NCBI GenBank assembly: GCA_050174015.1 | Contig: JBFXKG010000012.1 | Coordinates: 44,622 to 108,621, forward strand | Length of the DNA stretch: 64,000 nucleotides | Direction of reading: 5' to 3' | Source of the DNA: Candidatus Krumholzibacteriia bacterium | GTDB lineage: Bacteria; Krumholzibacteriota; Krumholzibacteriia; LZORAL124-64-63 | In this document: piece by piece, positions 12,838 through 26,160 of the stretch | How the letters are laid out: every line of letters begins with the position of its first letter | How positions within the stretch are numbered: position 1 is the stretch's first letter | Translations under genes and position numbers: made by a program | Notes under the pieces: model-generated | The model's input: only the letters and a program-made list of their open reading frames with translations | The model's database searches: none | What the model was told of the DNA's origin: nothing

Positions 12838-14400
12838 ATGCGACGGATTGCAACGATTTCAAGCCTGGCCGCCCTGCTGCTCGTGCTGGCCTTGCCGGCG
12901 GCTGCGGAATCCCTGAAGGGGACGGTCAAGCTCGGAGTCATCACCAAGGACGAGGACACGAGCGACGTGACGGCCATCCAGGAGACGGTCAACATCCACG
13001 ACGGATTCTCCGTCACCCAGGTGGCCCTGCGCGGGGCCCTGGGCGGCGGCAGCGCCTTCCGCCTCGACCTGGAGGAGATGAACCTCGATTCGCGGCGGGG
13101 TTACTTCAACTACCGGCTGCAGGATCGCCTCCACCTGACCGCGCGTTACGATCGCCGCCGGCATCTCTTCGACGCCGACGGGGCCGTGGAGAGCGAACGG
13201 GAGAAGTGGATGTTCGGCGCGAGGGTGACCCCGGCGGACTGGCTGCGGATCACCGGGGACTATTCCCGGCAGACCCGCCAGGGCGACCGTCTTGGTTACG
13301 GGGCCGGCTTCCAGAGCTGGCTGGGCGACGCCTACGATTACACCTTCGGGATCGGCCGGGTGGAGGCCGAGGCGCGCCGGGGCGCCCGGGCCTTCGCGGT
13401 CGGATTCGAGACCAGCAGCTTCGAGGACGCCCAGCTGACCGCGGCCGACCGGACCGGGCAGGTCTTCTCGGCCCGCGCCAACCTGCCTTGCCTGCTGTGG
13501 CCCGGCAAGCTGTCGCACTACCTGCGGGGCACCCTCGGCGAGCAGAAGCTCGACCAGGGGGGATTGGCCTACACCATGTCGACCTTCCAGTACGTCGGCG
13601 TCGCGCGGCCCGTCCGGCCCTTCCAGCTCGACTACCGGTTCTTCGGCAGCAGGGTGGAGGACGACGCCACCGGCCTGCAGACCGACGAGGTCCGCAACGA
13701 CTTCGACCTGACCTGGCATCACGCCCACGGCAAGGTCTTCGGCGGTTACGGCTACTTCACCAACGACAACGAGAGGTCGCTGACCAGCGACAACGTCTGG
13801 CGCGTCGGGACGGTGGTCGGCGACGGCAAGGTCTTCAAGGGCAAGGTCAGCTACGCCAGCAGCGAGAAGACGGACACCGAAGGCCTGACCCTCCTGAAGG
13901 ACATCGAGGCCAGCCGGCTCCGGTTTAGCCTGGACGTCAATCCCGACGACAAGATGAACTTCGGCGTCTCCTACATCGACCATGACCGGACCTTCCCGGT
14001 CATCGGGGTGGAATCCTCCGGACTCCGCTACGCGGCCCGGGGCGGCTACCGGCTGGACGGCCTCGGCGCCTTCAACCTGACCTACAGCTATTCGGACGAC
14101 GAATACCAGGACCTGGCAGGCTCCTTCCAGGCGGACAACCACGCCGTGACCGGTCGTCTGGACATCGATCGCTTCCGCGACCTGAAACTGTCGGCGGGGC
14201 TGACTTACCTCGACATCGGCAAGGACCTGGACATCGAGAAGTCCATCCTGATGTTCGCCGGCGAGTACGCCCTGCAGGACGATTACTTCGTGGAGGTGAA
14301 ATACAACGTCTACAACTACGACGATTTCATCCTCATGGATCGCTACTACACCGCGAACGTGGTGTGGGTGAATGTCGGCTACAAGCTTTCGATCGACTAG
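12838..14400 (+). CDS. Outer-membrane beta-barrel, MtrB/PioB-like porin
   Basis: Signal peptide, alternating amphipathic Tyr/Gly-rich strands, no CXXCH, directly after the decaheme gene with a GGAGG RBS; 520 aa. Confidence 0.78.
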   Translation: MRRIATISSLAALLLVLALPAAAESLKGTVKLGVITKDEDTSDVTAIQETVNIHDGFSVTQVALRGALGGGSAFRLDLEEMNLDSRRGYFNYRLQDRLHLTARYDRRRHLFDADGAVESEREKWMFGARVTPADWLRITGDYSRQTRQGDRLGYGAGFQSWLGDAYDYTFGIGRVEAEARRGARAFAVGFETSSFEDAQLTAADRTGQVFSARANLPCLLWPGKLSHYLRGTLGEQKLDQGGLAYTMSTFQYVGVARPVRPFQLDYRFFGSRVEDDATGLQTDEVRNDFDLTWHHAHGKVFGGYGYFTNDNERSLTSDNVWRVGTVVGDGKVFKGKVSYASSEKTDTEGLTLLKDIEASRLRFSLDVNPDDKMNFGVSYIDHDRTFPVIGVESSGLRYAARGGYRLDGLGAFNLTYSYSDDEYQDLAGSFQADNHAVTGRLDIDRFRDLKLSAGLTYLDIGKDLDIEKSILMFAGEYALQDDYFVEVKYNVYNYDDFILMDRYYTANVVWVNVGYKLSID

Positions 14401-14438
14401 TTGCAAGTCATGACGCCCGTCACAAGGAGGATCCGATA

Positions 14439-15428
14439 ATGACGGCAGCCCGCAAAAACCTGATGATCCTGATCTGCCTCGTGTCGTTGCTGGCCCTCGG
14501 CGCCTGTACCCGCGAGATCACCTACACCCAGGTGAACGAGAGCGCCTCGAGCTGCTTCGACTGCCACAACGATCAGGACACCTTCCTGATGGAAGCCCAG
14601 CTCGAGTGGACCTACTCCATGCACGCCATCGGCGCCAACGTCGCCTATGCCGGCGGCCGCAGCGGATGCTCCAATTGCCACTCCGGGGCGGGCTTCGAAG
14701 CTGCCCTGGCCGGCGAAACCGCAGTTCCTTACGCGACGTCCATCCGCTGCTTCAGCTGCCACGCTCCCCACACCAACGAGGACTTCCAGCTGCGGGTGAC
14801 GGAGGCCCAGACCCTGGCTGACGGAACGGTCCTGGACATCGGGGACGGCAATCTCTGCCTGTCCTGCCACCAGGCCCGCCGCGACGTGGCCACCGAGATC
14901 GTGGCCGACGACGAGGGCAACTACGTCATCCCCAGCAGCCACTGGGGCCCCCACCACGGTCCCCAGGGCGACCTCCTGGCCGGGACCAACGGCTACGAGT
15001 TCGAGGGCTACACCTACCGCAGTGCGGCTCCTCCGGCCCACCTGGCCAACGGCTGCATCAGCTGCCACTTCGCCGAGAACAGTGCCGCGGACCTGGGCGG
15101 CCACTCGTTCAACATGACCAACGCCGCCGGCGCCATGAACGTCAACGGCTGCAACCTCTGCCATACCGACCTGACGGACTTCAACTACGAAGGCCGCGTG
15201 GCGGAGATCGACGAGCTGGGCGAGGAACTGCACGCCCTGCTGGTCGCCGAGGGGACGGTCGACGAGGACGGGCATCCGATCCAGGACGCCGTCACGACCC
15301 TCGAGGGGAAGGCCGCGACGTGGAACTTCCTGTTCTGGGAAGAGGACCGGAGCCACGGCGTCCACAACCCCGACTATGCCGAAGACCTGCTCCGGGCCTC
15401 GATCGCGGTCATGAGCGGCGAGAAGTAG
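14439..15428 (+). CDS. Hexaheme c-type cytochrome lipoprotein (C-terminus resembles Geobacter OmcB-type surface cytochromes)
   Basis: Lipobox LALGA-C; 6 CXXCH (CFDCH, CSNCH, CFSCH, CLSCH, CISCH, CNLCH); C-terminal DRSHGVHNPDYAEDLL; AAGGAGG RBS. Confidence 0.85.
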   Translation: MTAARKNLMILICLVSLLALGACTREITYTQVNESASSCFDCHNDQDTFLMEAQLEWTYSMHAIGANVAYAGGRSGCSNCHSGAGFEAALAGETAVPYATSIRCFSCHAPHTNEDFQLRVTEAQTLADGTVLDIGDGNLCLSCHQARRDVATEIVADDEGNYVIPSSHWGPHHGPQGDLLAGTNGYEFEGYTYRSAAPPAHLANGCISCHFAENSAADLGGHSFNMTNAAGAMNVNGCNLCHTDLTDFNYEGRVAEIDELGEELHALLVAEGTVDEDGHPIQDAVTTLEGKAATWNFLFWEEDRSHGVHNPDYAEDLLRASIAVMSGEK

Positions 15429-16031: not shown

Positions 16032-17711
16032 ATGGACAAGCAGCTTCCCGGAATCGTCGTCACCGGGGCTTCGGGTTTCGTCGGCCGGCATTTCCTGGCC
16101 AGCGCGGCGGGCCGCTACCGCCTGTTCTGCCTGGCCCGGCGCTCCCGTTCGGAGGCGGGCGTTCCCGAGGATCCCAACCTGCGCTGGACCCAGGTGGACA
16201 TCGCCAAGTGGGACACCATGCGCCAGGTGGTCAACTGCGTGAAGGAGCATGGCGGGGCGGACTACGTCCTGCACCTGGCGGGATATTACGACTTCAAGTT
16301 CATGGAGCATCCGGAGTACGAGCGGACGAACGTCCTGGGGACCCGGAACGTCCTGAAGCTGGCCAAGCAGCTCGGGGTCAAGCGGTTCCTGTTCGCCAGC
16401 TCCCTGGCGGCCTGCCGTTTCCCCCCCGCCGGCGGCAGCGTGAACGAGGATTCCCCCGCCGATGCGGAATTCGCCTACGCCCGGAGCAAGCGCCAGGGGG
16501 AGGACATGGTGCGGGACAGCGCCGAGTGGTTCCCCGGCGCCATCATCCGGCTCGCGGCGGTCTTCAGCGACTGGTGCGAGTATCCGCCCCTCTACGTATT
16601 CCTCCAGACCTGGTTGGGACAGCGCTGGAACAGCCGGATCCTCGGCGGTAAGGGAAATTCCGCGGTCACCTACATCCACATCCAGGATCTGGTGAAGCTC
16701 TTCCACACGGTGATCGAGAAGAGCGATTCCCTGCCTCGGATCGGCGTCTACAACGCGAGTCCCAACTTCTGCACCAGCCACCGGGATCTCTTCCAGATCG
16801 CCACGCGCTACTACACGGGCGAGCAGGTGCGCCCGCTCTTCATGCCCCGGCGTCTGGCGGGTCCGGGCATCTATCTCCGCTGGTGGCTGGGCCGTCTGGT
16901 GGGGCGGATTCCCTTCGAGGCCCCGTGGATGACCAGGTACATCGACCGTCAGCTGGTGGTGGACGCCTCGCGGACCTACGAGGCGCTGGGCTGGAGCCCC
17001 GCGCGCCGGTCGGACATCTCCCGCAGGTTGCTCCTGATGATCGAGAACATGAAGGCCCACCGGGAGACCTGGAACCAGCGCAACGAGGCCGCCCTGCGCC
17101 GGGTGGCGCGGCGGCCGAACTTCGTCATCGCGGAGGCCCTCCAGGAGATGCGGGAGCATTGCCTCGGGCTCCTCGAGGATTTCGTGGCCGATCCAGGCCA
17201 TCGGGACCGGTTCCCCCACTACAGCCTGATGGAACCGGAAGCCATGCGGTGGTTCCTCACCTTGATCTATCAGGTCCTTTATTCCGCGGTCCAGACGCGG
17301 GACCGCCAGCTGATGCGCCACTACGCCCAGGTCATCGCGGCCAGGCGACGCCAGGAGGGTTTCGAGGCATCCGAGGTCATGGACCTGATGACTTCGGTGG
17401 GCGAGATCGTCAGCGAGGCCCTGCGCCGCAGGCGGGACCTGGAGGACCTGGGCCAGCAGATCCACGACCACGTGGTGCTCAGTTTCCAGCTGGCCATCGA
17501 CGCGGTGGAGGACGCCTACGAGACGATGGAGTCGCGTCCCCAGGAACTTGACGAGCGGCTGGGCGGGGTGGAACTCCCCACCAACGCGTCCGATCTCGAA
17601 CACATGGTCCATCAGCTCAGCGACATCTGTGACGAGGCCCTGCCTTCGCTGTACGGCGGGACGGGCCGTCCGTTGACGCGGGAACAGGTCCTGGGAAAGG
17701 GGCAGCCATGA
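16032..17711 (+). CDS. Extended SDR (NAD-dependent epimerase/dehydratase) fused to a C-terminal helical RsbRD_N/globin-like domain
   Basis: VVTGASGFVG, HLAGYY, FASSLAA, YARSK (YxxxK). C-terminal about 170 aa helical with RRRQEGFEASEV. Start set at MDKQL (16032). Confidence 0.8.
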   Translation: MDKQLPGIVVTGASGFVGRHFLASAAGRYRLFCLARRSRSEAGVPEDPNLRWTQVDIAKWDTMRQVVNCVKEHGGADYVLHLAGYYDFKFMEHPEYERTNVLGTRNVLKLAKQLGVKRFLFASSLAACRFPPAGGSVNEDSPADAEFAYARSKRQGEDMVRDSAEWFPGAIIRLAAVFSDWCEYPPLYVFLQTWLGQRWNSRILGGKGNSAVTYIHIQDLVKLFHTVIEKSDSLPRIGVYNASPNFCTSHRDLFQIATRYYTGEQVRPLFMPRRLAGPGIYLRWWLGRLVGRIPFEAPWMTRYIDRQLVVDASRTYEALGWSPARRSDISRRLLLMIENMKAHRETWNQRNEAALRRVARRPNFVIAEALQEMREHCLGLLEDFVADPGHRDRFPHYSLMEPEAMRWFLTLIYQVLYSAVQTRDRQLMRHYAQVIAARRRQEGFEASEVMDLMTSVGEIVSEALRRRRDLEDLGQQIHDHVVLSFQLAIDAVEDAYETMESRPQELDERLGGVELPTNASDLEHMVHQLSDICDEALPSLYGGTGRPLTREQVLGKGQP

Positions 17712-18181
17712 CCTCCGACAGGGATAGCAGGAAGAGCGGCTGGGAAGACCTGGCCTGGCGCAGTACGCGCTACAACGACCGGACCGTGCTCAAGTCCGGA
17801 TCGTTCCTGAACACCTTCTGCCCGCACTGCGGCGCCTCCCTCCTCCACGAGGGGATGGTGTTGCTGGAAACGGTCACGGCCGAGGGCGTGGAGGGCCGTC
17901 TGGAGCTCAGCCCCTACCTGAACGTGTTCGAGAGGCGCAGCGACATCCACATTCCCGAAGGCCAGGAGGTCAAGGACCTGCGCTGCAGCAGCTGCCACGC
18001 CTCCCTGAAGGCCGAAGGCCGGGTGTGCGGGGACGGACAGTCGGCGGTGGCCTGCGTCCTGGTGGGGATCTCGACCATCCGGGTGCCTTTCTTCTTCTGC
18101 ATGCGGGAGGGCTGCCGCTGGCAGCTCATCGACCCCGACGACGAGCACAAGATCATCCTGGACGACAGCAGGGAGTGGTAG
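17708..18181 (+). CDS. Cytoplasmic Cys-rich, putative metal-binding hypothetical protein
   Basis: CPHC, CSSC(H), C..C and CMREGC motifs; no signal peptide; ATGA overlap with the SDR gene. Confidence 0.75.
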   Translation: MTSDRDSRKSGWEDLAWRSTRYNDRTVLKSGSFLNTFCPHCGASLLHEGMVLLETVTAEGVEGRLELSPYLNVFERRSDIHIPEGQEVKDLRCSSCHASLKAEGRVCGDGQSAVACVLVGISTIRVPFFFCMREGCRWQLIDPDDEHKIILDDSREW

Positions 18182-18185
18182 ACCC

Positions 18186-18689
18186 ATGACCAATGCCCAA
18201 CCGGGACGCGGACGTGCGGTGATGCTCGCGGTGGTCACCCTGGCCCTGCTCGTCGTGGGCGCCGGGGGATACCTGCGGGAAGGCCCGGCTGATGATCCCC
18301 CCCGCTTCTATCTCCCGAATTCGGCCGGTGCGGTCCTGTTCACCCACGCGGATCACCTGGACATCGTCGGCGATTGCGAGACGTGCCACCACGAAAGCGC
18401 GGCCATGGATCCGCGCAATTGCCGGAGCTGCCACCCGGCGACGGCGGCCGAAGGCGAGCCGTTCCGCGGTTGCGGGTCCTGCCACGACGACCCGGACTAC
18501 ACGGCGGACTTCCTCGACCACGCCGGACTCCTGGAGATCGAGGAGCACGAGTGTTCCGGGTGCCACGATCCGGTGGGGGTGTCCGACGCCTATCATGCCT
18601 TGTGCAACGGTTGCCACCTGGAGAACGATCCCGACCGGTTCGCCGGTCCGGGCGGGCAGCCCCTCTGCGCGGCCTGCCATCTCAGGTAA
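18186..18689 (+). CDS. Class III (c3-type) hexaheme cytochrome c
   Basis: N-terminal anchor/signal, GAVLFTHADH class III motif, 6 CXXCH (CETCH, CRSCH, CGSCH, CSGCH, CNGCH, CAACH). Confidence 0.88.
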   Translation: MTNAQPGRGRAVMLAVVTLALLVVGAGGYLREGPADDPPRFYLPNSAGAVLFTHADHLDIVGDCETCHHESAAMDPRNCRSCHPATAAEGEPFRGCGSCHDDPDYTADFLDHAGLLEIEEHECSGCHDPVGVSDAYHALCNGCHLENDPDRFAGPGGQPLCAACHLR

Positions 18690-18706: not shown

Positions 18707-19987
18707 ATGAACCTGCTGGACATGCTCAGATCGCCGGCGCGCAGAGTTCCCGAACCGGGGGCGGCCCGTCCCGGCATCATCGACATCCCCGATCCCGACC
18801 GGGTGATCATCGCCCTGGAGTACCCGGGCAAGATCCTCTTCAGACCGGTGGTGAAGGAGGGGGACACGGTCGCCGCCAACCAGTTGATCGGCAGGTCCGG
18901 GCAGGGCAACTGCCTGCACGCTTCGATCGGGGGCACCGTGCAGGAGATCCGGCCGGTCTGGTCGGCCACCAGCGACCACGTGCCTGCGGTGGTCATCGCC
19001 CGCAGCGCGGTGCCGCCCCTTTCCCCGGAAAGGGTCCTGGCCCAGGCGGGCCTCGAATTGACGCGGGCCACGCGGGTGGAGTTGATGAAGGCCTGCGGGG
19101 TCGTCAGTCCCTGGACCACGCCGGGCCCGAACGACAGCGAGGAGGACGTCGCCCGGTATCCCGAGGTGCGGCACCTGGTGATCGTCGGGGTCAACCAGGA
19201 ACCGACCACCGTCAACTACGAGCTGCTGCTCCAGCAGGAGGTCGAGGCCGTCAAGATCGGCCTGCACCGGCTCCGGGAATTCTGCCCCCGGGTGCGCCCG
19301 CGGCTGCTGGTGGCGGCGGGCATGGCGGCCTGGGCGCGCAAGGAGCTGGGGGACTCCCTCGACATCGTGCCCCTCGGGGCGGACTACCGCAGGCGGATCA
19401 GGCGGCTGGTGATTCCGGAGCTCACCGGCGAAAAGGTGGCGGCGACCGAGGCCTTCCGGGCCCACGGGATCGCCTCGATCACCGTCGAACAGCTGCTGGC
19501 CATGGTGGATTCCCAGGCGGGCCTGCCGTTCGTCCGCAAGACGGTGTCGGTGGCGGGGGCCGGGCTGGACGGCACGGTCACCGTACGGGTCCCGGTGGGG
19601 ACGCCCGTCCGCTGGATCCTGGAACAGCTGGACCTCCCCGAACCCCGCGGCGGCCGCCTGATCATGGGCGGCCCCATGCGCGGCATGGCCCATTACACCC
19701 TCGACGCCCCGGTGAGCAAGTTCGAGAACGGGGTCTATCTGCTGGACCGTGAGCACCTGCCCTCCGAGGTGAACCTCACCTGCATCAACTGCGGGGTCTG
19801 CACCCGGACCTGCCCGGTGGGTCTGCAGGTCCACCTCCTGGGCCGGTGCGTGGAATTCGGCAGCCTGTCCGACACTCCCCGCTACCACCCCGAGGCCTGC
19901 CTGGAATGCGGCCTTTGCGCGTTCGTCTGTCCGGCGCACCGGCCCCTGGTGCAGATGATCAAGATGGCCAAGAAATACGGCGGTTGA
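18707..19987 (+). CDS. rnfC: RnfC-like subunit with a degenerate NADH/FMN-binding site
   Basis: N-terminal barrel (VKEGDTV...LHASIGGTV), SLBB region, GGPMRG, two ferredoxin motifs CINCGVCTRTCP and CLECGLCAFVCP. The GMGGAGFP motif is replaced by GVVSPWTT. Confidence 0.85.
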   Translation: MNLLDMLRSPARRVPEPGAARPGIIDIPDPDRVIIALEYPGKILFRPVVKEGDTVAANQLIGRSGQGNCLHASIGGTVQEIRPVWSATSDHVPAVVIARSAVPPLSPERVLAQAGLELTRATRVELMKACGVVSPWTTPGPNDSEEDVARYPEVRHLVIVGVNQEPTTVNYELLLQQEVEAVKIGLHRLREFCPRVRPRLLVAAGMAAWARKELGDSLDIVPLGADYRRRIRRLVIPELTGEKVAATEAFRAHGIASITVEQLLAMVDSQAGLPFVRKTVSVAGAGLDGTVTVRVPVGTPVRWILEQLDLPEPRGGRLIMGGPMRGMAHYTLDAPVSKFENGVYLLDREHLPSEVNLTCINCGVCTRTCPVGLQVHLLGRCVEFGSLSDTPRYHPEACLECGLCAFVCPAHRPLVQMIKMAKKYGG

Positions 19988-19989
19988 CC

Positions 19990-20988
19990 ATGGCGACTTC
20001 GCTCGAAAAATCCCCGTTCCTGACCTCCTCCGACTTCAACGTCGCCTCCAGTCCGCACTGGCGCGACGGCAGTTCGCTCGCCCAGATCCAGGTGCTGTGG
20101 CTCGTCGCCCTGATGCCCGCGGTCTGGGGGGCCTGGAGCCATTTCGGTCTGACGGGTGTGCGGGTCCTCTGCCTGGCCACCGCCACGGCGGTGATGTGGG
20201 ACGCCCTGGGCAACCGGATCTTCCCGGGCAAGGACCACACGACCAACCTCAGCAGCGTGACCCTGGGCCTGCTGCTGGGCCTGATCCTGCCGGTGGACGC
20301 CCCCTGGTGGCTGGTCACGGTCGGCACCTTGATGATGATCATGGTCGGCAAGAAGATGTTCGGGGGCTGGGGCGGATATCCGGTCCACCCGGTGGCGCTG
20401 AGCTACGCCATGCTCGCGGTCTCCTGGCCGGGACGACTGGACCGGACGGCGGCCCTGGCCGGGCTGGACTGGCCGGTGACCATGATCGAGCCCCTGCGCC
20501 TGGTCAAGACCCTGGGCCCGGCGGCCGAAGGGGCCTTCGCGCCCCTGGACCTGTTGCGCGGCGACCAGGTGGCGGGGGTGGGGGACGGGATGGTGATCCA
20601 CCTCGCCGCCGGCGGCCTTCTGCTGGTCCTGCTGCGCCAGGTTCCCTGGCAGATCCCGGTGGGGACGCTGCTGGGAACCGCGGGTACCGCGGCGGCCCTC
20701 GCCTGGCTGACCCCGGACAGGGTGGCGTCGGCCCAGTTCCATCTGCTGACCGGGGGCACGGTCCTCATGGCGTTCTTCCTGCTGGCCGAGCACACGACCT
20801 CCCCGGTGAACGCCCGACCGATGCTGCTCTACGGGCTGCTGGCGGGGTTGCTGATGGTCCTCATCCGCACCTTCAGCAGCCACGTCGACGGGGGCATGTT
20901 CGCGCTCCTGCTGGTGAACCTGTGTTCCCCCCTGCTGGACCGCTGGGTTCCCCGTCTCAAGGGTTTGGAGGTGGGAAGCGATGCGTGA
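19990..20988 (+). CDS. rnfD: RnfD-like membrane subunit lacking the FMN-carrying Thr
   Basis: SSPHWR, GKKMFGGWG...HPVA, AEHTTSP, FALLLVNL; VTMIEPL where RnfD has (S/T)GATPL. Confidence 0.88.
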   Translation: MATSLEKSPFLTSSDFNVASSPHWRDGSSLAQIQVLWLVALMPAVWGAWSHFGLTGVRVLCLATATAVMWDALGNRIFPGKDHTTNLSSVTLGLLLGLILPVDAPWWLVTVGTLMMIMVGKKMFGGWGGYPVHPVALSYAMLAVSWPGRLDRTAALAGLDWPVTMIEPLRLVKTLGPAAEGAFAPLDLLRGDQVAGVGDGMVIHLAAGGLLLVLLRQVPWQIPVGTLLGTAGTAAALAWLTPDRVASAQFHLLTGGTVLMAFFLLAEHTTSPVNARPMLLYGLLAGLLMVLIRTFSSHVDGGMFALLLVNLCSPLLDRWVPRLKGLEVGSDA

Positions 20989-21568
20989 CATCGGCCGTCT
21001 CGTCCTGGTTCTGGTGGCGATCTGCTCGCTCAGCGCAGCCTCCCTGTCCTACGTGAGGACGTCGCTGGCGACCCGGATCGAACAGCAGGGCGACTACTAC
21101 GTCAGGGGACCGGCCCTGGCCCGGCTGTTCCAGCAGCCGGCTTCCCAGCTGCTGGCCAACAAGGTCAAGATCACCAGGGATGGGATCGAGTATCCGGTCT
21201 TTTTCCGGAAGGACGGGGAGCAGGTCACCGGTCTCGCGGTGGAAGCCTCCGGCCAGGGAGGCTACGGCGGTCCCATCGTGATGATGATCGGGATCGATCT
21301 GGCCACCGACACGGTCCTGGGCGTGGAGATCGTCTTCCACAGCGAGACCCCCGGCCTGGGCGCCCAGGTCGAGAAGGCCGGGTTCCGGCAGCAATGGGTC
21401 GGGCTTCCCCTGGGGTCGTCCGTGGCCCTCGCCGGGTCCGGAGGGTCGGTGGACGCCATCACCGGGGCGACCTTCTCCTCCAGCGCCATGGTGGACGGAA
21501 CGAACCAGGTCCTTGACCTGATGAACACGAACAGGGCAGCCATTCTGGCCGAGATCGCCGGTCGCTGA
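20981..21568 (+). CDS. rnfG: RnfG periplasmic FMN-binding subunit
   Basis: N-terminal anchor, GYGGPI, HSETPGLG, covalent-FMN motif DAITGATFSS intact. Confidence 0.92.
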   Translation: MRDIGRLVLVLVAICSLSAASLSYVRTSLATRIEQQGDYYVRGPALARLFQQPASQLLANKVKITRDGIEYPVFFRKDGEQVTGLAVEASGQGGYGGPIVMMIGIDLATDTVLGVEIVFHSETPGLGAQVEKAGFRQQWVGLPLGSSVALAGSGGSVDAITGATFSSSAMVDGTNQVLDLMNTNRAAILAEIAGR

Positions 21569-21593: not shown

Positions 21594-22205
21594 ATGGATT
21601 TCAAGCAGGCGTTGACCCACGGTTTCTGGCGCGACCTGCCGCCTTTCCGCCTGGTGCTGGGGCTGTGCCCCTCGCTCGCGGTGACCGCCGCGGCGGAGAA
21701 CGGTTTGGGCATGGGGCTGGCGGTCACCTTCGTGCTGATCTTCAGCAACATGTTCATCTCGCTGCTGCGCCGGGTGATCCCCGACAAGGTGAGGATCGCC
21801 AGCTACATCGTCGTCATCGCCACCCTGGTGGTTCTGGTGGAGCTGAGCATGAAGGCCTTCTTCTTCCCGCTCTCGCAGCAGCTCGGCATCTACATCCCCC
21901 TGATCGTGGTGAACTGCATCATCCTGGGACGGGCCGAGGCCTTCGCCAGCCGCAACCCGGTGCTGATCTCCATGGCCGACGGCCTGAGCGTGGGCCTGGG
22001 CTTCACCGTTTCGTTGACCCTGGTGGGATCGCTGCGGGAGATCCTGGGCTCGGGCACCTGGTTCGGGATGGGACTTTTCGGTCCGGGCTTCGAGCCGTTC
22101 GGTTTCATGGTCAAGGCCCCGGGCGCCTTCCTCTGCCTGGGGGTGCTGCTGGGGCTCATGAACGCGTGGAGCCGCCGCCGCGGGGAAATCTTCGTCCAGA
22201 CCTGA
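21594..22205 (+). CDS. rnfE: RnfE membrane subunit
   Basis: LGLCPSLAVT, IYIPLIVVNCIILGRAE, PGAFL. Confidence 0.95.
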   Translation: MDFKQALTHGFWRDLPPFRLVLGLCPSLAVTAAAENGLGMGLAVTFVLIFSNMFISLLRRVIPDKVRIASYIVVIATLVVLVELSMKAFFFPLSQQLGIYIPLIVVNCIILGRAEAFASRNPVLISMADGLSVGLGFTVSLTLVGSLREILGSGTWFGMGLFGPGFEPFGFMVKAPGAFLCLGVLLGLMNAWSRRRGEIFVQT

Positions 22206-22217
22206 GGAGCGTGACTC

Positions 22218-22793
22218 GTGGATCTGATCATCCTGGCCGTCGGGGCCATCTTCGTGCAGAACATCCTGCTCGCGCAGTACCTGGGCAACTGCCCGTTCTG
22301 CGGCGTCTCCAAGAAGACGGGGACCGCCGTCGGCATGGGGGTCGCGGTGATCTTCGTGGCCACCCTGGCCTCGATCTTCACGTGGCTGGCCTATTACCTG
22401 CTCCTGGTGCCGCGCCACCTGGAGTACCTGCAGACCATGGTCTTCATCCTCATCATCGCCGCCCTGGTCCAGCTGGTGGAGATCTTCCTGAAGAAGCAGA
22501 GCAGGACCCTGTACGACGCCCTGGGCATCTACCTGCCCTTGATCACGACCAACTGCGCCGTGATGGGCATCGCCCTGCTGAACATCAAGCACGGGTTCGG
22601 TTTCGTGGAGATGGTGGTGTATTCCGCGGCGAGCGCGGCGGGATTCGCCCTGGCGATCATCCTGTTCGCAGGAGTGCGGGAGCGGATGTTCCTGGCGCCC
22701 GTCCCCAAGGCGATGCGCGGCACCGCCATCGCCCTGGTCACGGCCGGGATCATGTCGCTCGCGTTCATGGGGTTCGCGGGCATGGGCAAGTAG
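22218..22793 (+). CDS. rnfA: RnfA membrane subunit
   Basis: YLGNCPF, LGIYLPLITTNCAVMG, GVRER; GTG start after GAGGAG. Confidence 0.95.
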   Translation: MDLIILAVGAIFVQNILLAQYLGNCPFCGVSKKTGTAVGMGVAVIFVATLASIFTWLAYYLLLVPRHLEYLQTMVFILIIAALVQLVEIFLKKQSRTLYDALGIYLPLITTNCAVMGIALLNIKHGFGFVEMVVYSAASAAGFALAIILFAGVRERMFLAPVPKAMRGTAIALVTAGIMSLAFMGFAGMGK

Positions 22794-22809: not shown

Positions 22810-24909
22810 ATGCTGGTTCCGGCAATGGTACTCGGGGGCATCGCGGCGGTGGCGGCCGTCGCCCTCGGCATCGCGGCGCGGATCTTCCACGTGGAGGAGG
22901 ATCCCCGCTTCAAAGGCGTGGCCGACCTGCTGCCCGGCGCCAACTGCGGCGGCTGCGGTTTCGCCGGCTGCTCGGCCTGCGCCGAGGCCATCGTGCGCGG
23001 CCAGGCCGAGGTGAACGCCTGCGTGGTCGGCCAGACCGATACCGCCCGGCAGGTGGCGGCCTTCCTGGGCATGGAGATGGTGGACAACGAGCCCCAGATC
23101 GCCTGCCCCGACTGTCGGGGGGGGATCCGGGCGACGCGCAAGTACGACTACGCGGGGTTCGACGACTGCCGGGCCGCCATGCAGCTCTTCCACGGTCCCA
23201 CCGTCTGCGACCACGGCTGCCTCGGTCTGGGGACCTGCATCCGGGCCTGCCAGTTCGGCGCCATCCGGATGGGGGACGAGGGCCTGCCGGTCTTCGATCC
23301 CTTGAGGTGCGTCGGTTGCGGCTCCTGCGTGCGGGCCTGTCCCAAGGGGATCATCTCCATCATCAGCGAGACCACCAAGATCCTGCACTGGAACCGCTAC
23401 AGCGAGTGCCTGGCGCCCTGCCGCCAGAAGTGCCCGGCCCAGGTCAACGTGCCCAAGTACATCGAGCACATCCGCAAGGGCGAGTACGCCCAGGCCCTGA
23501 TGACGGTGCGGGAAAGCAATCCGCTGCCCCTGAGCACCGGGCGGGTCTGCCCCGAACCCTGCTCCCTGGCCTGCCGGCGCCAGATCGAGGACGAACCGGT
23601 GGCCATCAACTACCTCAAGCGGTTCCTGGCCGACTGGGAGATGGAGCAGGAGACCAGGCTGCACATCCCCGTCGCCCCGGACACGGGCAAGCGGATCGCG
23701 GTGATCGGCGGGGGACCGGCCGGGCTGAGCGCCGCCTACTATCTGCGCCGCCTCGGCCACGCGGTCGCCATCTTCGAGAAGATGCCTGCCCTGGGCGGCA
23801 TGCTGCGCTACGGCATTCCCGAGTACCGGTTGCCCAAGCGGATCCTGGACTGGGAGATCCAGGGCATCCTGGGCCTGGGCATCCAGGCGACCTGCAACGT
23901 GGAGCTCGGCAAGCACTTCAGCATCGACTTCCTGCGGGCCGAGGGCTTCGACGCCATCTTCATGGCCGTGGGCGCCTGGCTGGACAAGGGCCTGGGCCTG
24001 GACGAGGACGGTCTGGAGGGCGTGGCGCCCGGCATCAAGTTCCTCGAGACCTACCACCACCAGAAGGACATCACCGTCACCGGGAGGGTGGCGGTCATCG
24101 GCGGCGGCAACACCGCCATCGATTGCGCCCGGACGTCCCTGCGGTCGGGCGCCGAGAAGGTGACCATCGTCTACCGTCGCAGCCGCGACGAGATGCCGGC
24201 CAATCCCGCCGAGATCATCGCCGCCGAGGAGGAAGGCATCGAGTTCCGCTTCCTCAGCGCACCGAGCTGCATCCTGAGCGAGGATGGGCGGGTCACGGGG
24301 CTGGAGGTCCTGCGCATGGAACTCGGCGAGCCCGACCCCAGCGGCAGGCGCCGTCCCGTGCCGGTGGCGGGCAGCGAGGAGACCGTGCCCTGCGACCTGA
24401 TCATCGAGGCCGTGGGCCAGGAGCCCGACCTCGAATTCCTGAAGTCCGAGGGCATGCCCAAGCTGCCGCTCACCCGCTGGAACACCATCGACGCCAAGGA
24501 GGAGACCCTGCAGACGGACGTCCCGTTCATCTTCACGGGGGGGGACTGCTTCACCGGTCCCGGCCTGATGGTGGAGGCCATCGGAGCGGGCCGGTACGCC
24601 GCCCGGTCCATCCACTACTACGTGACCGACGGGGTGATTCCCCCGATCGAGCACCGTCAGACCGACCTGATTCCCGCCTCGCTGTTCGAGTCGATCAGCG
24701 GGGTGGAGGAGAAGCCCAAGGTGCACGAACCCATCGTGTCGCTGGAGGACCGGCTGGGGACCTTCAAGGAGGTCGAGGGCACCATCGACGAGGAGGACGC
24801 GGTCTACGAGGCGAGCCGGTGCCTGCACTGCGGGACCTTCTGCTACGACCACGACCTCGAGGTGGCCAGGCAGGAGGCGGAACAGGACAGGATGCAGGAG
24901 AGCACCTGA
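22810..24909 (+). CDS. rnfB: RnfB fused to a GltD/NfnB-like FAD/NADP(H) oxidoreductase module
   Basis: LPGANCGGCGFAGCSAC, CLGLGTCIRAC, CVGCGSCVRACP; then PCRQKCP...GRVCPEPCSLAC, IGGGPAG (FAD), IGGGNTAID...YRRS (NADP-type), EASRCLHCG. Confidence 0.9.
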   Translation: MLVPAMVLGGIAAVAAVALGIAARIFHVEEDPRFKGVADLLPGANCGGCGFAGCSACAEAIVRGQAEVNACVVGQTDTARQVAAFLGMEMVDNEPQIACPDCRGGIRATRKYDYAGFDDCRAAMQLFHGPTVCDHGCLGLGTCIRACQFGAIRMGDEGLPVFDPLRCVGCGSCVRACPKGIISIISETTKILHWNRYSECLAPCRQKCPAQVNVPKYIEHIRKGEYAQALMTVRESNPLPLSTGRVCPEPCSLACRRQIEDEPVAINYLKRFLADWEMEQETRLHIPVAPDTGKRIAVIGGGPAGLSAAYYLRRLGHAVAIFEKMPALGGMLRYGIPEYRLPKRILDWEIQGILGLGIQATCNVELGKHFSIDFLRAEGFDAIFMAVGAWLDKGLGLDEDGLEGVAPGIKFLETYHHQKDITVTGRVAVIGGGNTAIDCARTSLRSGAEKVTIVYRRSRDEMPANPAEIIAAEEEGIEFRFLSAPSCILSEDGRVTGLEVLRMELGEPDPSGRRRPVPVAGSEETVPCDLIIEAVGQEPDLEFLKSEGMPKLPLTRWNTIDAKEETLQTDVPFIFTGGDCFTGPGLMVEAIGAGRYAARSIHYYVTDGVIPPIEHRQTDLIPASLFESISGVEEKPKVHEPIVSLEDRLGTFKEVEGTIDEEDAVYEASRCLHCGTFCYDHDLEVARQEAEQDRMQEST

Positions 24910-25986
24910 TCAGGAACCGGCGCCCGTCCTCAGGCGGTAGCGGTCCGCGTAGCCGGGCAGGACGGCGATCCTGCCGGCGAGGCCCGGGGTGGGGATGACG
25001 TCGATCTCGCCGGGGCCGGGACCGGGCACGACGAAGACGGCTTCGACTCCGGGGTGGTGGCGGGCGAGCAGCAGCGCCCCCTGCTCGGGCCCCAGGATGA
25101 ACAGGGTCGTCGAGAGCCCGTCGGCGAGGATCCCCGTGGGGGCGATGACGGTCGCGCTGAGGGTCCCGGCGGCCGGGCTGCCGGTGGCGGGATTCATGAT
25201 GTGACCGTACCGCACGCCGTCGATGGTCACGAACTTCTCGTAGGATCCGCTGGTCGCCACGGCCGCGTTCGAGACGGTGACGGTGGCGAAGATCCGGGTC
25301 TTGTCCAGGGGATCCTTGATCCCCACCCGCCAGTCGGCCCGGCCAGGCGCCCCGCCCAGGCAGAAGAGGTTTCCCCCCAGGTCGATCAGGCCGCCCTTGA
25401 CCCCTGCGGCGCGCAGGCGGGCGACGGCCAGATCCACGGCCAGGCCCTTGGCGATCCCGCCCAGATCGAACCGGGTCCCCCCCGATTCCTTGACCACGGC
25501 CCGCCCCTCCTGGACGAAGCGCCAGCGTCCCAGGAGGGCCCGGGCCGAGTCCACGGCCGCCGCACCCGGCAGGACCCCCCGCTTCCGGTGGAATCCCCAC
25601 AGGTCCAGCAGGGCGCCGGCGGTGGGGTCGAAGGCCCCGCCGCTCTGTTCTCCCAGCTGCCGGGACAGTTCCAGGCAACGGCCCAGCCAGGGCGATACGG
25701 CGACGGCGGAGTCCGCGGGGGCGCGGTTCAGGCGGCTGATCGCGGAATCCGGGCGCCGGATGCTCAGCTCCGACTCCAGGGAATCGTACACCGCCTGCAC
25801 CAGGGCCTCGGCCCGGGAGGCATCCAGCCCCGGGGGCAGCTCGAGGGAACAGGCGGCCACCGTCCCCATGCTGGCGAATTCGAAACTGCCCGAGGCGGGG
25901 CCGGGCGAGGATGAGCGGCAAGCCGGAAGGGCGGCCAGGAGGGGAACCAGGAACATGGCGGGAATCCGCAGGGTTCGGCTGATCAT
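24910..25986 (-). CDS. apbE: ApbE/Ftp FAD:protein FMN transferase (lipoprotein)
   Basis: SMGT, FDPTAG, DLGGIAKGLAVD, LGGN, ATSGSYE, GHIMNP, ADGLST; lipobox ALPA-C; start set at MISRT; stop abuts the rnfB stop (TGATCA). Confidence 0.92.
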   Translation of the reverse strand: MISRTLRIPAMFLVPLLAALPACRSSSPGPASGSFEFASMGTVAACSLELPPGLDASRAEALVQAVYDSLESELSIRRPDSAISRLNRAPADSAVAVSPWLGRCLELSRQLGEQSGGAFDPTAGALLDLWGFHRKRGVLPGAAAVDSARALLGRWRFVQEGRAVVKESGGTRFDLGGIAKGLAVDLAVARLRAAGVKGGLIDLGGNLFCLGGAPGRADWRVGIKDPLDKTRIFATVTVSNAAVATSGSYEKFVTIDGVRYGHIMNPATGSPAAGTLSATVIAPTGILADGLSTTLFILGPEQGALLLARHHPGVEAVFVVPGPGPGEIDVIPTPGLAGRIAVLPGYADRYRLRTGAGS

Positions 25987-26160
25987 CGGATCCTTCCCGG
26001 TCGGTTCTCGGGACCTGGCAAGGCGAGCTTCCCCCAAGATATCCCTCCGGATCACGAGATCAAATCGTGAGGATTCGTTGCGGGCGCCCAGGAAGCATAC
26101 TAAAATGATATGGTTTAAGAAATATGATTCTCATTTTCGCCGAACGGGAGCGCGCCGCTG

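What the first reader, a model, noticed from the sequence alone, without database searches (positions are those of the whole stretch)
18707..19987. RnfC has lost the NADH/FMN-binding motifs but keeps both 4Fe-4S clusters
Seen: ACGVVSPWTTPG (about 19090-19125) where RnfC/NqrA/NuoF-type domains have AGIVG(M/L)GGAGFP, and IVGVNQEP in place of INGAECEP. Both CxxCxxCxxxCP motifs are intact. Inference: not an NAD+ reductase; possibly structural or a ferredoxin-type relay.
Basis: partly seen in the sequence, partly recalled or inferred. Interest (0 to 1): 0.58.

Follow-up and report, generated by a model that had tools for sequence, protein, structure and literature searches.

The report
Flavin-less RnfC of an Rnf2-type pump
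This gene encodes the C subunit of a little-studied "Rnf2-type" membrane redox pump: it has lost its own NADH/flavin pocket but keeps two iron-sulfur clusters, because an NADPH-binding flavoprotein is fused to subunit B and a multihaem cytochrome is added. The layout is already described in sulfate reducers, but nobody has tested how it works.

Summary
The 426-aa RnfC at 18707-19987 has ACGVVSPWTTPG where solved RnfCs have AGIVG(L/M)GGATFP. It has VGVNQEPT for NGAECEP and DYRRRIRR for KYPQGxEK. Both CxxCxxCxxxCP motifs are intact.

This is not decay. About 68 homologue clusters from several phyla share the replacement loop, which is more conserved (0.84 identity) than the protein average (0.63).

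Across 80 genomic loci the loss co-varies with two other changes:
- RnfB is fused to a GltD/NfnB-like NADPH-FAD domain (here 699 aa).
- RnfD has lost its flavin-carrying threonine (here Glu).

RnfG's flavin threonine and the RnfA/E cluster cysteines are kept. The operon also encodes a hexahaem cytochrome, and the genome holds a separate canonical Rnf.

This is the published but biochemically untested "Tol2-type/Rnf2" complex of Desulfobacteraceae (PMC5109826, PMC11887813), here in an unclassified non-sulfate-reducer lineage. This scan has already met the type on at least 11 other genomes.

The most likely route is NAD(P)H to the RnfB fusion, then RnfA/E, RnfG and the cytochrome. RnfC would then be an NqrA-like cap. 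Why its clusters are retained is unexplained.

Verdict: a new member of a known kind, of moderate interest.

The parts
18707..19987 (+). RnfC variant (426 aa): N-terminal barrel-sandwich domain, NuoF-like fold without flavin/NADH motifs, C-terminal 2x[4Fe-4S] ferredoxin domain
19091..19126 (+). Former FMN-phosphate loop: ACGVVSPWTTPG replaces AGIVGLGGATFP. G131, P135 and W136 are invariant in 28 clade members.
19178..19201 (+). IVGVNQEP replaces INGAECEP. E165 is invariant in the clade.
19382..19405 (+). DYRRRIRR replaces KYPQGxEK, the third flavin-site motif. R230 is invariant in the clade.
19781..19816 (+). First CxxCxxCxxxCP motif (C359-P370)
19898..19933 (+). Second CxxCxxCxxxCP motif (C398-P409)
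17708..18181 (+). Cytoplasmic Cys-rich Zn-ribbon-like protein (157 aa) with seven conserved Cys and a conserved C-terminal S-x-E-W. It is conserved in the operon of this clade.
18186..18689 (+). Membrane-anchored hexahaem c7/c3-like cytochrome (6 CxxCH), 17 nt upstream of rnfC
19990..20988 (+). RnfD. The likely start is ATG 19990. The flavin-carrying Thr (A. woodii T156) is Glu at nt 20488-20490.
20981..21568 (+). RnfG, with the FMN-attachment motif TGAT retained
21594..22205 (+). RnfE, with cluster cysteines C25 and C108 retained
22218..22793 (+). RnfA, with cluster cysteines C25 and C113 retained
22810..24909 (+). RnfB (residues 1-192) fused to a GltD/NfnB-like 2x[4Fe-4S]-FAD-NAD(P)H domain (residues ~195-699)
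24910..26055 (-). ApbE flavin transferase (divergent strand)
16032..17711 (+). Extended-SDR protein with a C-terminal helical domain. It sits next to this operon type in 9 related loci; its role is unknown.

Best explanation
The gene encodes the RnfC subunit of an Rnf2-type (Desulfobacula toluolica Tol2-type) ion-translocating redox complex.

In this type the pyridine-nucleotide site is not on RnfC. It sits on a GltD/NfnB-like FAD/[4Fe-4S]/NAD(P)H module fused to the C-terminus of RnfB. RnfC keeps the RnfC/NuoF fold and its two [4Fe-4S] clusters but no longer binds FMN or NAD(H). RnfD has also lost its covalently bound FMN.

The inferred electron route is NAD(P)H, then FAD and FeS of RnfB::GltD, then the RnfA/E cluster, then RnfG-FMN on the outer face, then the operon's membrane-anchored hexahaem cytochrome. 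The route could also run in reverse. It would be coupled to Na+/H+ movement as in Nqr.

RnfC then acts mainly as an NqrA-like cytoplasmic cap that holds RnfD and RnfB in place. Its clusters are either structural or a side port whose partner is unknown.

Shown here: the motif losses, their conservation, the co-variation, the retained cofactor ligands and the retained fold. Inferred: absence of flavin, the direction and end points of electron flow, and ion coupling.
For: - Motifs: all three flavin/nucleotide-site motifs are replaced, and both FeS motifs are intact.
- Domain models: Pfam Complex1_51K and SLBB are not detected, and TIGR01945 scores below its cut-off.
- Fold: the AF2 model is confident over residues 20-350. 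Foldseek ranks RnfC first (9eri_C, 1e-25), then NqrA (3e-16), then NuoF/HydB.
- Co-variation: in 80 loci, every RnfB::GltD fusion goes with a motif-less RnfC and every canonical RnfC goes with a 266-346 aa RnfB. On the RnfC tree the two states need one change (SH-aLRT 91).
- RnfD: the T156 equivalent is Glu in 17/17 clade loci, non-Thr in the other fused-RnfB loci except L045, and Thr in 21/21 canonical loci.
- Retained path: RnfG keeps TGAT, and RnfA C25/C113 and RnfE C25/C108 are kept.
- RnfB fusion: the GltD part matches the NADPH-binding subunits of NfnABC/StnABC (9bov_A, 1e-131) and NfnB/GltD. It shows the FAD and NAD(P)H Rossmann motifs and a VYRR stretch.
- Operon partners: a hexahaem cytochrome with an N-terminal anchor and ApbE next door.
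- Second Rnf: a separate canonical rnfABCDGE elsewhere in the genome can cover Fd:NAD+.
- Literature: the same domain changes are described for Rnf2.
- Polarity argument (inference from the published Rnf/Nqr mechanism): the RnfB side is the low-potential input. With NAD(P)H there, the acceptor must be more positive than NAD(P)H, which fits a cytochrome or quinone and not ferredoxin.
Against: - All eight cluster cysteines of RnfC are invariant in 54 Rnf2-type sequences that share only 25-50% identity. NqrA lost them, so a purely structural role is not an easy fit.
- The riboflavin-contacting positions of RnfD are replaced only conservatively (N to H/Q, D to E/D). A riboflavin-RnfC link may therefore survive.
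- Some fused-RnfB loci have no cytochrome within 9 kb. The cytochrome cannot be the universal acceptor of the class.
- No biochemistry exists for any Rnf2-type complex.
Confidence: 0.65

Rival explanations
1. RnfC is a working second cytoplasmic electron port. Its two [4Fe-4S] clusters exchange electrons with a one-electron partner, which could be ferredoxin, the operon's Cys-rich Zn-ribbon protein or the clusters of the fused GltD domain. The complex would then have three ports (NADPH, Fd or X, cytochrome c) and might be confurcating or bifurcating, like the NfnABC/StnABC enzymes that its GltD domain resembles.
For: - The eight cluster cysteines are invariant across the whole class.
- The riboflavin-ligand positions in RnfD are conservatively kept.
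- The GltD domain's nearest solved relatives are subunits of electron-bifurcating transhydrogenases.
- A conserved Cys-rich cytoplasmic protein sits in the operon.
- Some fused-RnfB loci lack a cytochrome.
- PMC5109826 says an RnfC donor/acceptor other than NAD 'has to be identified'.
Against: - RnfD lacks the covalent FMN that links RnfG to riboflavin and RnfC.
- In solved Rnf the RnfB and RnfC clusters are 25 A to more than 30 A apart.
- The Zn-ribbon protein is not tied to this RnfC type. It was found in two genomes with other Rnf2 subtypes and not found in one genome of this clade.
- With NAD(P)H on the input side, ferredoxin as the output would be thermodynamically backwards for a pump (inference).
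Confidence: 0.2
2. RnfC still binds a flavin or nucleotide. The conserved SPWTTPG / N(E/Q)EPT / YRxRIER residues would form a re-modelled pocket for a different cofactor or substrate, so RnfC remains catalytic.
For: - The replacement loop is among the most conserved segments outside the FeS motifs: 0.84 identity against a 0.63 mean, with invariant G131, P135, W136, E165 and R230.
- The AF2 model is confident there, with pLDDT 93-96.
Against: - The glycine-rich phosphate-binding loop shared by all NuoF/RnfC flavin sites is gone.
- In the other Rnf2 subclades the same loop is variable or deleted, so the class as a whole does not need a ligand there.
- An invariant Trp, Glu and Arg are equally well explained as pocket-filling, salt-bridging residues that stabilise an empty site (inference).
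Confidence: 0.08
3. The gene is a decaying, non-functional paralogue of the genome's canonical rnfC.
For: A canonical Rnf exists elsewhere in the genome.
Against: - The reading frame is intact, with an RBS and tight operon spacing.
- About 68 homologue clusters at 39-99% identity across several phyla share the same replaced motifs.
- The nine-gene operon is conserved.
- Rnf2 subunits are abundantly detected in proteomes of Desulfobacteraceae.
Confidence: 0.02

Closest known systems
Rnf2 / 'Desulfobacula toluolica Tol2-type' Rnf complex of Desulfobacteraceae (PMC5109826 section 23, citing Woehlbrand et al. 2016; PMC11887813 supplementary text and fig. S18)
   Same: [quoted passage not shown]
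- RnfC lacks the NADH-ubiquinone-oxidoreductase/FMN and SLBB domain signatures.
- A cytochrome c gene lies in the cluster.
- It coexists with an A. woodii-type Rnf1 in the same genome.
   Different: - This copy comes from an unclassified high-GC bacterium (NCBI label 'bacterium'). Its clade spans MAGs labelled Krumholzibacteriia, Zixibacteria, Calditrichota, Thermoanaerobaculales and Fibrobacteraceae, plus Desulfocapsaceae and Geopsychrobacteraceae.
- RnfC is only 25-30% identical to the Desulfobacteraceae loci.
- The former FMN loop is a conserved SPW(T)xPG motif rather than variable or deleted.
- RnfD has Glu rather than mostly Tyr at the flavin Thr position.
- The operon adds a Zn-ribbon Cys-rich gene and lies beside a porin-cytochrome cluster.
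Canonical RnfC of Fd:NAD+ Rnf (A. woodii 9ERI, C. tetanomorphum 7ZC6, A. vinelandii 8AHX)
   Same: - Same overall fold (Foldseek E 1e-25 to 3e-23).
- Same N-terminal barrel-sandwich domain.
- Same two C-terminal [4Fe-4S] motifs.
- Same position in an rnfCDGEAB operon.
   Different: - No GxGGAxFP, NGAECEP or KYPQGxEK motifs, so no predicted FMN or NADH site.
- 23% identity.
- Below the TIGR01945 cut-off.
NqrA of Na+-NQR (V. cholerae 4U9Q, 8ACY)
   Same: - It is an RnfC homologue that lost the flavin/NADH site after an NADH-oxidising flavoprotein (NqrF there, the GltD fusion here) took over the input side.
- It is the second-best structural match (E 3e-16).
   Different: - NqrA has lost all cluster cysteines, whereas this protein keeps all eight.
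- NqrB keeps its covalent FMN and binds quinone, whereas this RnfD has lost the FMN threonine.
- The input module is unrelated (NqrF is FNR-like, this one is GltD-like).
Methanosarcina Rnf with cytochrome MmcA (PMC4023990)
   Same: - It is a cytochrome-linked Rnf that does not use NAD.
- A Methanosarcinales RnfC in the sample (L048) also lacks the flavin-site motifs while keeping eight Cys.
   Different: - There RnfB is short and ferredoxin is the donor.
- The loss sits on the canonical side of the RnfC tree, so it is probably independent.

Membership tests
Canonical RnfC (TIGR01945, NAD+-reducing subunit) | NuoF-like FMN/NADH site: GxGGAxFP loop, NGAECEP and KYPQGxEK (Pfam PF01512) | tested here: not met
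   All three motifs are replaced. PF01512 is not detected.
Canonical RnfC (TIGR01945, NAD+-reducing subunit) | Score above the curated family cut-off | tested here: not met
   172.4 bits against 245.95. The genome's other RnfC scores 562.
Canonical RnfC (TIGR01945, NAD+-reducing subunit) | Two C-terminal CxxCxxCxxxCP [4Fe-4S] motifs | tested here: met
   C359/362/365/369 and C398/401/404/408
Canonical RnfC (TIGR01945, NAD+-reducing subunit) | RnfC fold and N-terminal barrel-sandwich domain, encoded with rnfDGEAB | tested here: met
   PF13375 at 3.5e-9. Foldseek top hits are RnfC chains. Operon shown.
Rnf2 / Tol2-type Rnf | Large RnfB (~700 aa) with a C-terminal NAD(P)-binding pyridine-nucleotide oxidoreductase domain | tested here: met
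   699 aa. The RnfB models match the N-terminal ~190 residues, with a longest stretch of 5-259 (NF005503). Fer4_20 + Pyr_redox_2 / PRK12771 cover 195-682.
Rnf2 / Tol2-type Rnf | RnfC without the Complex1_51K/FMN and SLBB domain signatures | tested here: met
Rnf2 / Tol2-type Rnf | Cytochrome c gene in the rnf cluster | tested here: met
   Hexahaem cytochrome at 18186-18689
Rnf2 / Tol2-type Rnf | RnfC groups with fused-RnfB loci rather than with canonical RnfC on a tree | tested here: met
   One change separates the two states, SH-aLRT 91. The window lies in a 100%-supported 17-row clade inside the fused-RnfB side.
Rnf2 / Tol2-type Rnf | Catalytic activity and ion coupling of the complex | not testable with these tools
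   No biochemical data were found for any member.
NqrA (Na+-NQR subunit A) | No redox cofactors: cluster cysteines absent | tested here: not met
   All eight Cys are retained.
NqrA (Na+-NQR subunit A) | Encoded with nqrBCDEF (NqrF input subunit; NqrB with covalent FMN) | tested here: not met
   The operon has RnfB::GltD instead of NqrF. The neighbours score best as RnfD/G/E/A.

The most novel reading that the evidence does not exclude
In this SPW-motif clade the former flavin/NADH cleft of RnfC may have been re-used as a docking site for a new partner or ligand, such as the co-encoded Cys-rich Zn-ribbon protein or the fused GltD domain. RnfC's two [4Fe-4S] clusters would then form a third electron port. 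The complex would be a membrane-bound, ion-coupled, possibly bifurcating or confurcating NADPH/ferredoxin/cytochrome c oxidoreductase, not a simple Nqr-like two-port pump.
Probability: 0.1. Interest if true: 0.8.

Novelty: new member of a known kind. Interest (0 to 1): 0.33.

Why it matters
Rnf and Nqr are the textbook pair of sodium- or proton-pumping redox complexes. The 2025 review of the family states that the membrane-core cofactors are strictly conserved, and it does not mention this type.

Rnf2-type complexes break that rule. They lack the flavin on RnfC and the covalent flavin on RnfD, and the NAD(P)H site sits on RnfB. They repeat, with different parts, the rewiring that produced Nqr from Rnf.

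They are constitutively abundant in marine sulfate reducers. As this window shows, they also occur in several uncultured sediment phyla, here beside an outer-membrane cytochrome conduit. Such a complex could be a major, unmeasured link between cytoplasmic NADPH and periplasmic or extracellular electron transfer.

The finding itself adds a member and a conserved motif. It does not add a new kind of system.

Tried and rejected
Gene context was taken instead from the search for related loci plus my own tblastn.
- I tested whether the Zn-ribbon Cys-rich protein is tied to the SPW-type RnfC. It sits in the operon in nearly all clade loci. A whole-genome search, however, found it in two genomes with other Rnf2 subtypes and not in one clade genome. 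No strict link exists, so that idea is downgraded.
- I looked for a description of this type in the structural and review literature. The only papers found were the Desulfobacteraceae proteogenomic ones, reached through an earlier scan note.
I could not measure whether W136, E165 and R230 fill the old FMN pocket.
- I could not name the organism. NCBI calls it only 'bacterium'.
- The swapped-ends model (NAD(P)H on RnfB, ferredoxin on RnfC, full U-shaped path) is rejected as the main reading. RnfD lacks its FMN, and the polarity would make an exergonic reaction consume the ion gradient (inference).
- The pseudogene reading is rejected on the conservation data.

Full report
**The observation**

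The ORF at 18707-19987 (+) translates to a 426-aa protein. A GAAGGA/GAGG ribosome-binding stretch precedes its ATG, 17 nt after the stop of the upstream cytochrome gene.

Pfam finds an RnfC_N barrel-sandwich domain and 4Fe-4S dicluster domains. It finds neither Complex1_51K (PF01512) nor SLBB (PF10531). NCBIfam's rnfC model matches end to end but scores only 172 bits against a cut-off of 246.

phmmer alignments to the solved RnfC chains 9eri_C, 7zc6_C and 8ahx_C place the motifs as follows:
- ACGVVSPWTTPGPN lies opposite (N/E)AGIVG(L/M)GGATFPTHVK.
- VIVGVNQEPT lies opposite V(L/V)N(G/A)AECEPY.

A third motif that lines the NuoF-type flavin site is also replaced. KYPQGxEK is the counterpart of the YxxGEE motif of NuoF, which I state from background knowledge. 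Here it reads DYRRRIRR.

Both CxxCxxCxxxCP motifs are intact.

**Not decay**

The same genome (G000, 4.36 Mb, 57 contigs) has a second RnfC on contig 8. It scores 562 bits and carries GIVGLGGATFPT, NGAECEP and KYPQGSEK. It lies in a canonical rnfABCDGE cluster with a 247-aa RnfB.

The variant has about 68 homologue clusters at 39-99% identity in metagenomes. Where sources give a name, they come from Krumholzibacteria, Zixibacteria, Gemmatimonadales, Acidobacteriota and Calditrichaceae MAGs.

All of them share the replacement motifs GV(I/V)SPWTTPG, N(E/Q)EPT and (D/E)YRxRIER. In a 28-sequence alignment the former FMN loop has 0.84 mean column identity against 0.63 for the whole protein. G131, P135, W136, E165 and R230 are invariant.

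**The operon and the co-variation**

The neighbours on the + strand are:
- an SDR-plus-helical-domain protein (16032-17711);
- a Cys-rich Zn-ribbon-like protein (17708-18181);
- a membrane-anchored hexahaem c7/c3-like cytochrome (18186-18689);
- RnfC;
- RnfD (probable start 19990);
- RnfG, RnfE and RnfA;
- a 699-aa RnfB whose residues ~195-699 form a GltD/NfnB-like Fer4_20 + FAD/NAD(P)H domain.

ApbE lies divergently downstream.

A scan of GTDB species genomes returned 80 loci. I ran tblastn with the window's proteins and tabulated motifs per locus. The result is a clean co-variation:
- Every locus with an RnfB::GltD fusion has an RnfC without the flavin-site motifs.
- Every locus with canonical motifs has a short RnfB (266-346 aa).

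On a maximum-likelihood tree of 80 RnfC sequences the two states need a single change (SH-aLRT 91). The window sits in a 17-row clade with 100% support. That clade joins MAGs labelled Fibrobacteraceae, Krumholzibacteriia, Thermoanaerobaculales, Zixibacteria and Calditrichota with Desulfocapsaceae and Geopsychrobacteraceae.

A third change travels with these two. The flavin-carrying threonine of RnfD is T156 in A. woodii (PMC11889175). Its state across the loci is:
- Glu in all 17 loci of this clade;
- Tyr, Glu, Pro, Asp or Ala in the other fused-RnfB loci, with L045 keeping Thr;
- Thr in all 21 canonical loci.

By contrast RnfG keeps its TGAT attachment motif. RnfA C25/C113 and RnfE C25/C108, the ligands of the intramembrane cluster, are kept.

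**What the fused domain is**

The C-terminal 500 residues of RnfB match the NADP(H)-binding, GltD-like parts of the bifurcating transhydrogenases best: NfnABC (9bov_A at 1e-131, 9n5u_A) and StnABC (8oh5_C). NfnB (4ylf_B, 5jca_L), GltD and dihydropyrimidine dehydrogenase follow.

The sequence shows the FAD (GGGPAG) and NAD(P)H (GGGNTA...VYRR) Rossmann signatures. That the Arg pair indicates NADPH is background knowledge and was not tested here.

**Structure**

An AlphaFold2 model built on the clade alignment has mean pLDDT 79.9. It is confident for residues 20-350, including the replaced loop (block means 93-96). It is poor for the cofactor-dependent ferredoxin domain.

Foldseek ranks RnfC chains first (1e-25 to 3e-23), then NqrA (3e-16 to 4e-14), then NuoF/HydB-type subunits. 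The fold is retained, and the protein lies between RnfC and NqrA in cofactor content.

**Comparison with what is known**

The architecture is published.

PMC5109826 describes a 'D. toluolica Tol2-type' Rnf (Rnf2). Its RnfB is about 700 aa and carries NAD-binding sites. [quoted passage not shown]

PMC11887813 and its supplement repeat this. They add that the cluster encodes a cytochrome c3 and that Rnf2 is constitutively abundant in six Desulfobacteraceae.

No biochemical or structural study was found. The 2025 Rnf/Nqr review does not mention the type and calls the membrane-core cofactors strictly conserved.

This scan has already reported the same type on at least 11 other genomes.

**Mechanism**

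In canonical Rnf, electrons run from ferredoxin through RnfB, RnfA/E, RnfG-FMN, RnfD-FMN, riboflavin and the RnfC clusters to RnfC-FMN and NAD+ (PMC9588780, PMC11889175).

Here the first half of that path keeps all its ligands, and the second half has lost both FMN sites. With an NAD(P)H dehydrogenase module on the input side and a cytochrome next to RnfG, the simplest route is NAD(P)H to RnfB::GltD, then RnfA/E, RnfG-FMN and the hexahaem cytochrome. This is an Nqr-like two-port pump, or its reverse.

The electrons may therefore go on to the cell surface. I did not test that.

A ferredoxin output at RnfC is unlikely. The input side of the machine must be the lower-potential side for ion export (inference from the published mechanism).

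RnfC would then be what NqrA is in Nqr, a cap that anchors RnfD and the input subunit.

**What does not fit**

- NqrA lost its cluster cysteines, but all eight are invariant in 17 + 37 Rnf2-type sequences. There is a caveat: the loci were retrieved with patterns built on these very motifs, so invariance is partly an ascertainment effect. The word-based protein search shows the same picture.
- The two riboflavin-contacting residues of RnfD are replaced only conservatively.
- The former FMN loop is under unusually strong constraint in this clade, although it is variable or deleted in other Rnf2 subclades.
- Five fused-RnfB loci have no multihaem gene within 9 kb.

These points keep alive the reading that RnfC's clusters are a real electron port with an unidentified partner. 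I tested the Zn-ribbon protein as a candidate. It has seven conserved Cys and a conserved C-terminal S-x-E-W. It also occurs in genomes with other Rnf2 subtypes and was not found in one genome of this clade, so there is no specific link.

**Distribution**

In 120 sampled genomes of the organism's own phylum, the variant RnfC was found in 8 of 48 genomes of the same family and in none of 72 from other families. Identities within the family were about 50% apart from one congener at 97%. It is thus a patchy accessory system. NCBI labels the organism only 'bacterium'.

**Verdict**

The protein is a new member of the published Rnf2/Tol2-type class, in a lineage and subclade outside the Desulfobacteraceae where it was described. 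It has its own conserved loop motif.

Interest is moderate. The class is mechanistically untested and runs against the textbook cofactor set, but the finding itself is already known and has been met repeatedly in this scan.

Noticed in passing
G000:C8, L007:5229-10222: A complete canonical rnfABCDGE cluster in the same genome: short 247-aa RnfB, RnfC with all flavin motifs, RnfD with TGAT. Its gene order differs from the variant's rnfCDGEAB.
   Followed up: partly
window 17708-18181: A 157-aa cytoplasmic Cys-rich protein with a CPxC...CxxC Zn-ribbon, three further conserved Cys and a conserved C-terminal S-x-E-W. It has no family name in Pfam, NCBIfam or the ESM Atlas. It is conserved in the operon but is not restricted to genomes with this RnfC subtype.
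   Followed up: partly
window 22810-24909: The nearest solved relatives of the GltD-like half of RnfB are the NADPH-binding subunits of the electron-bifurcating NfnABC/StnABC transhydrogenases (9bov_A at 1e-131), ahead of classical NfnB/GltD.
   Followed up: no
L048 (Methanosarcinales MAG): The RnfC of a Methanosarcinales locus with a short RnfB also lacks the three flavin-site motifs and keeps eight Cys. It branches on the canonical side of the tree, so this looks like an independent loss in the cytochrome-linked archaeal Rnf.
   Followed up: no
L028, L030, L039, L045, L046: These fused-RnfB loci have no multihaem cytochrome gene within about 9 kb, and L045 still has Thr at the RnfD flavin position. 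The class is heterogeneous.
   Followed up: no
window 16032-17711; L008, L009, L010, L013, L014, L015, L023, L034: A ~560-aa extended-SDR protein with a long C-terminal helical domain sits immediately before or after this operon type in nine loci. It occurs in the non-Desulfobacterota half of the clade only.
   Followed up: no
window 19846-19990: The mechanical RnfD ORF starts at GTG 19846 and overlaps rnfC by 141 nt. An in-frame ATG at 19990, 3 nt after the rnfC stop, fits the homologues better.
   Followed up: yes
window 12838-15428: Upstream ORFs give a weak MtrB/PioB porin hit and a multihaem MtrC/c7-like hit. This fits a porin-cytochrome conduit next to the rnf operon.
   Followed up: no
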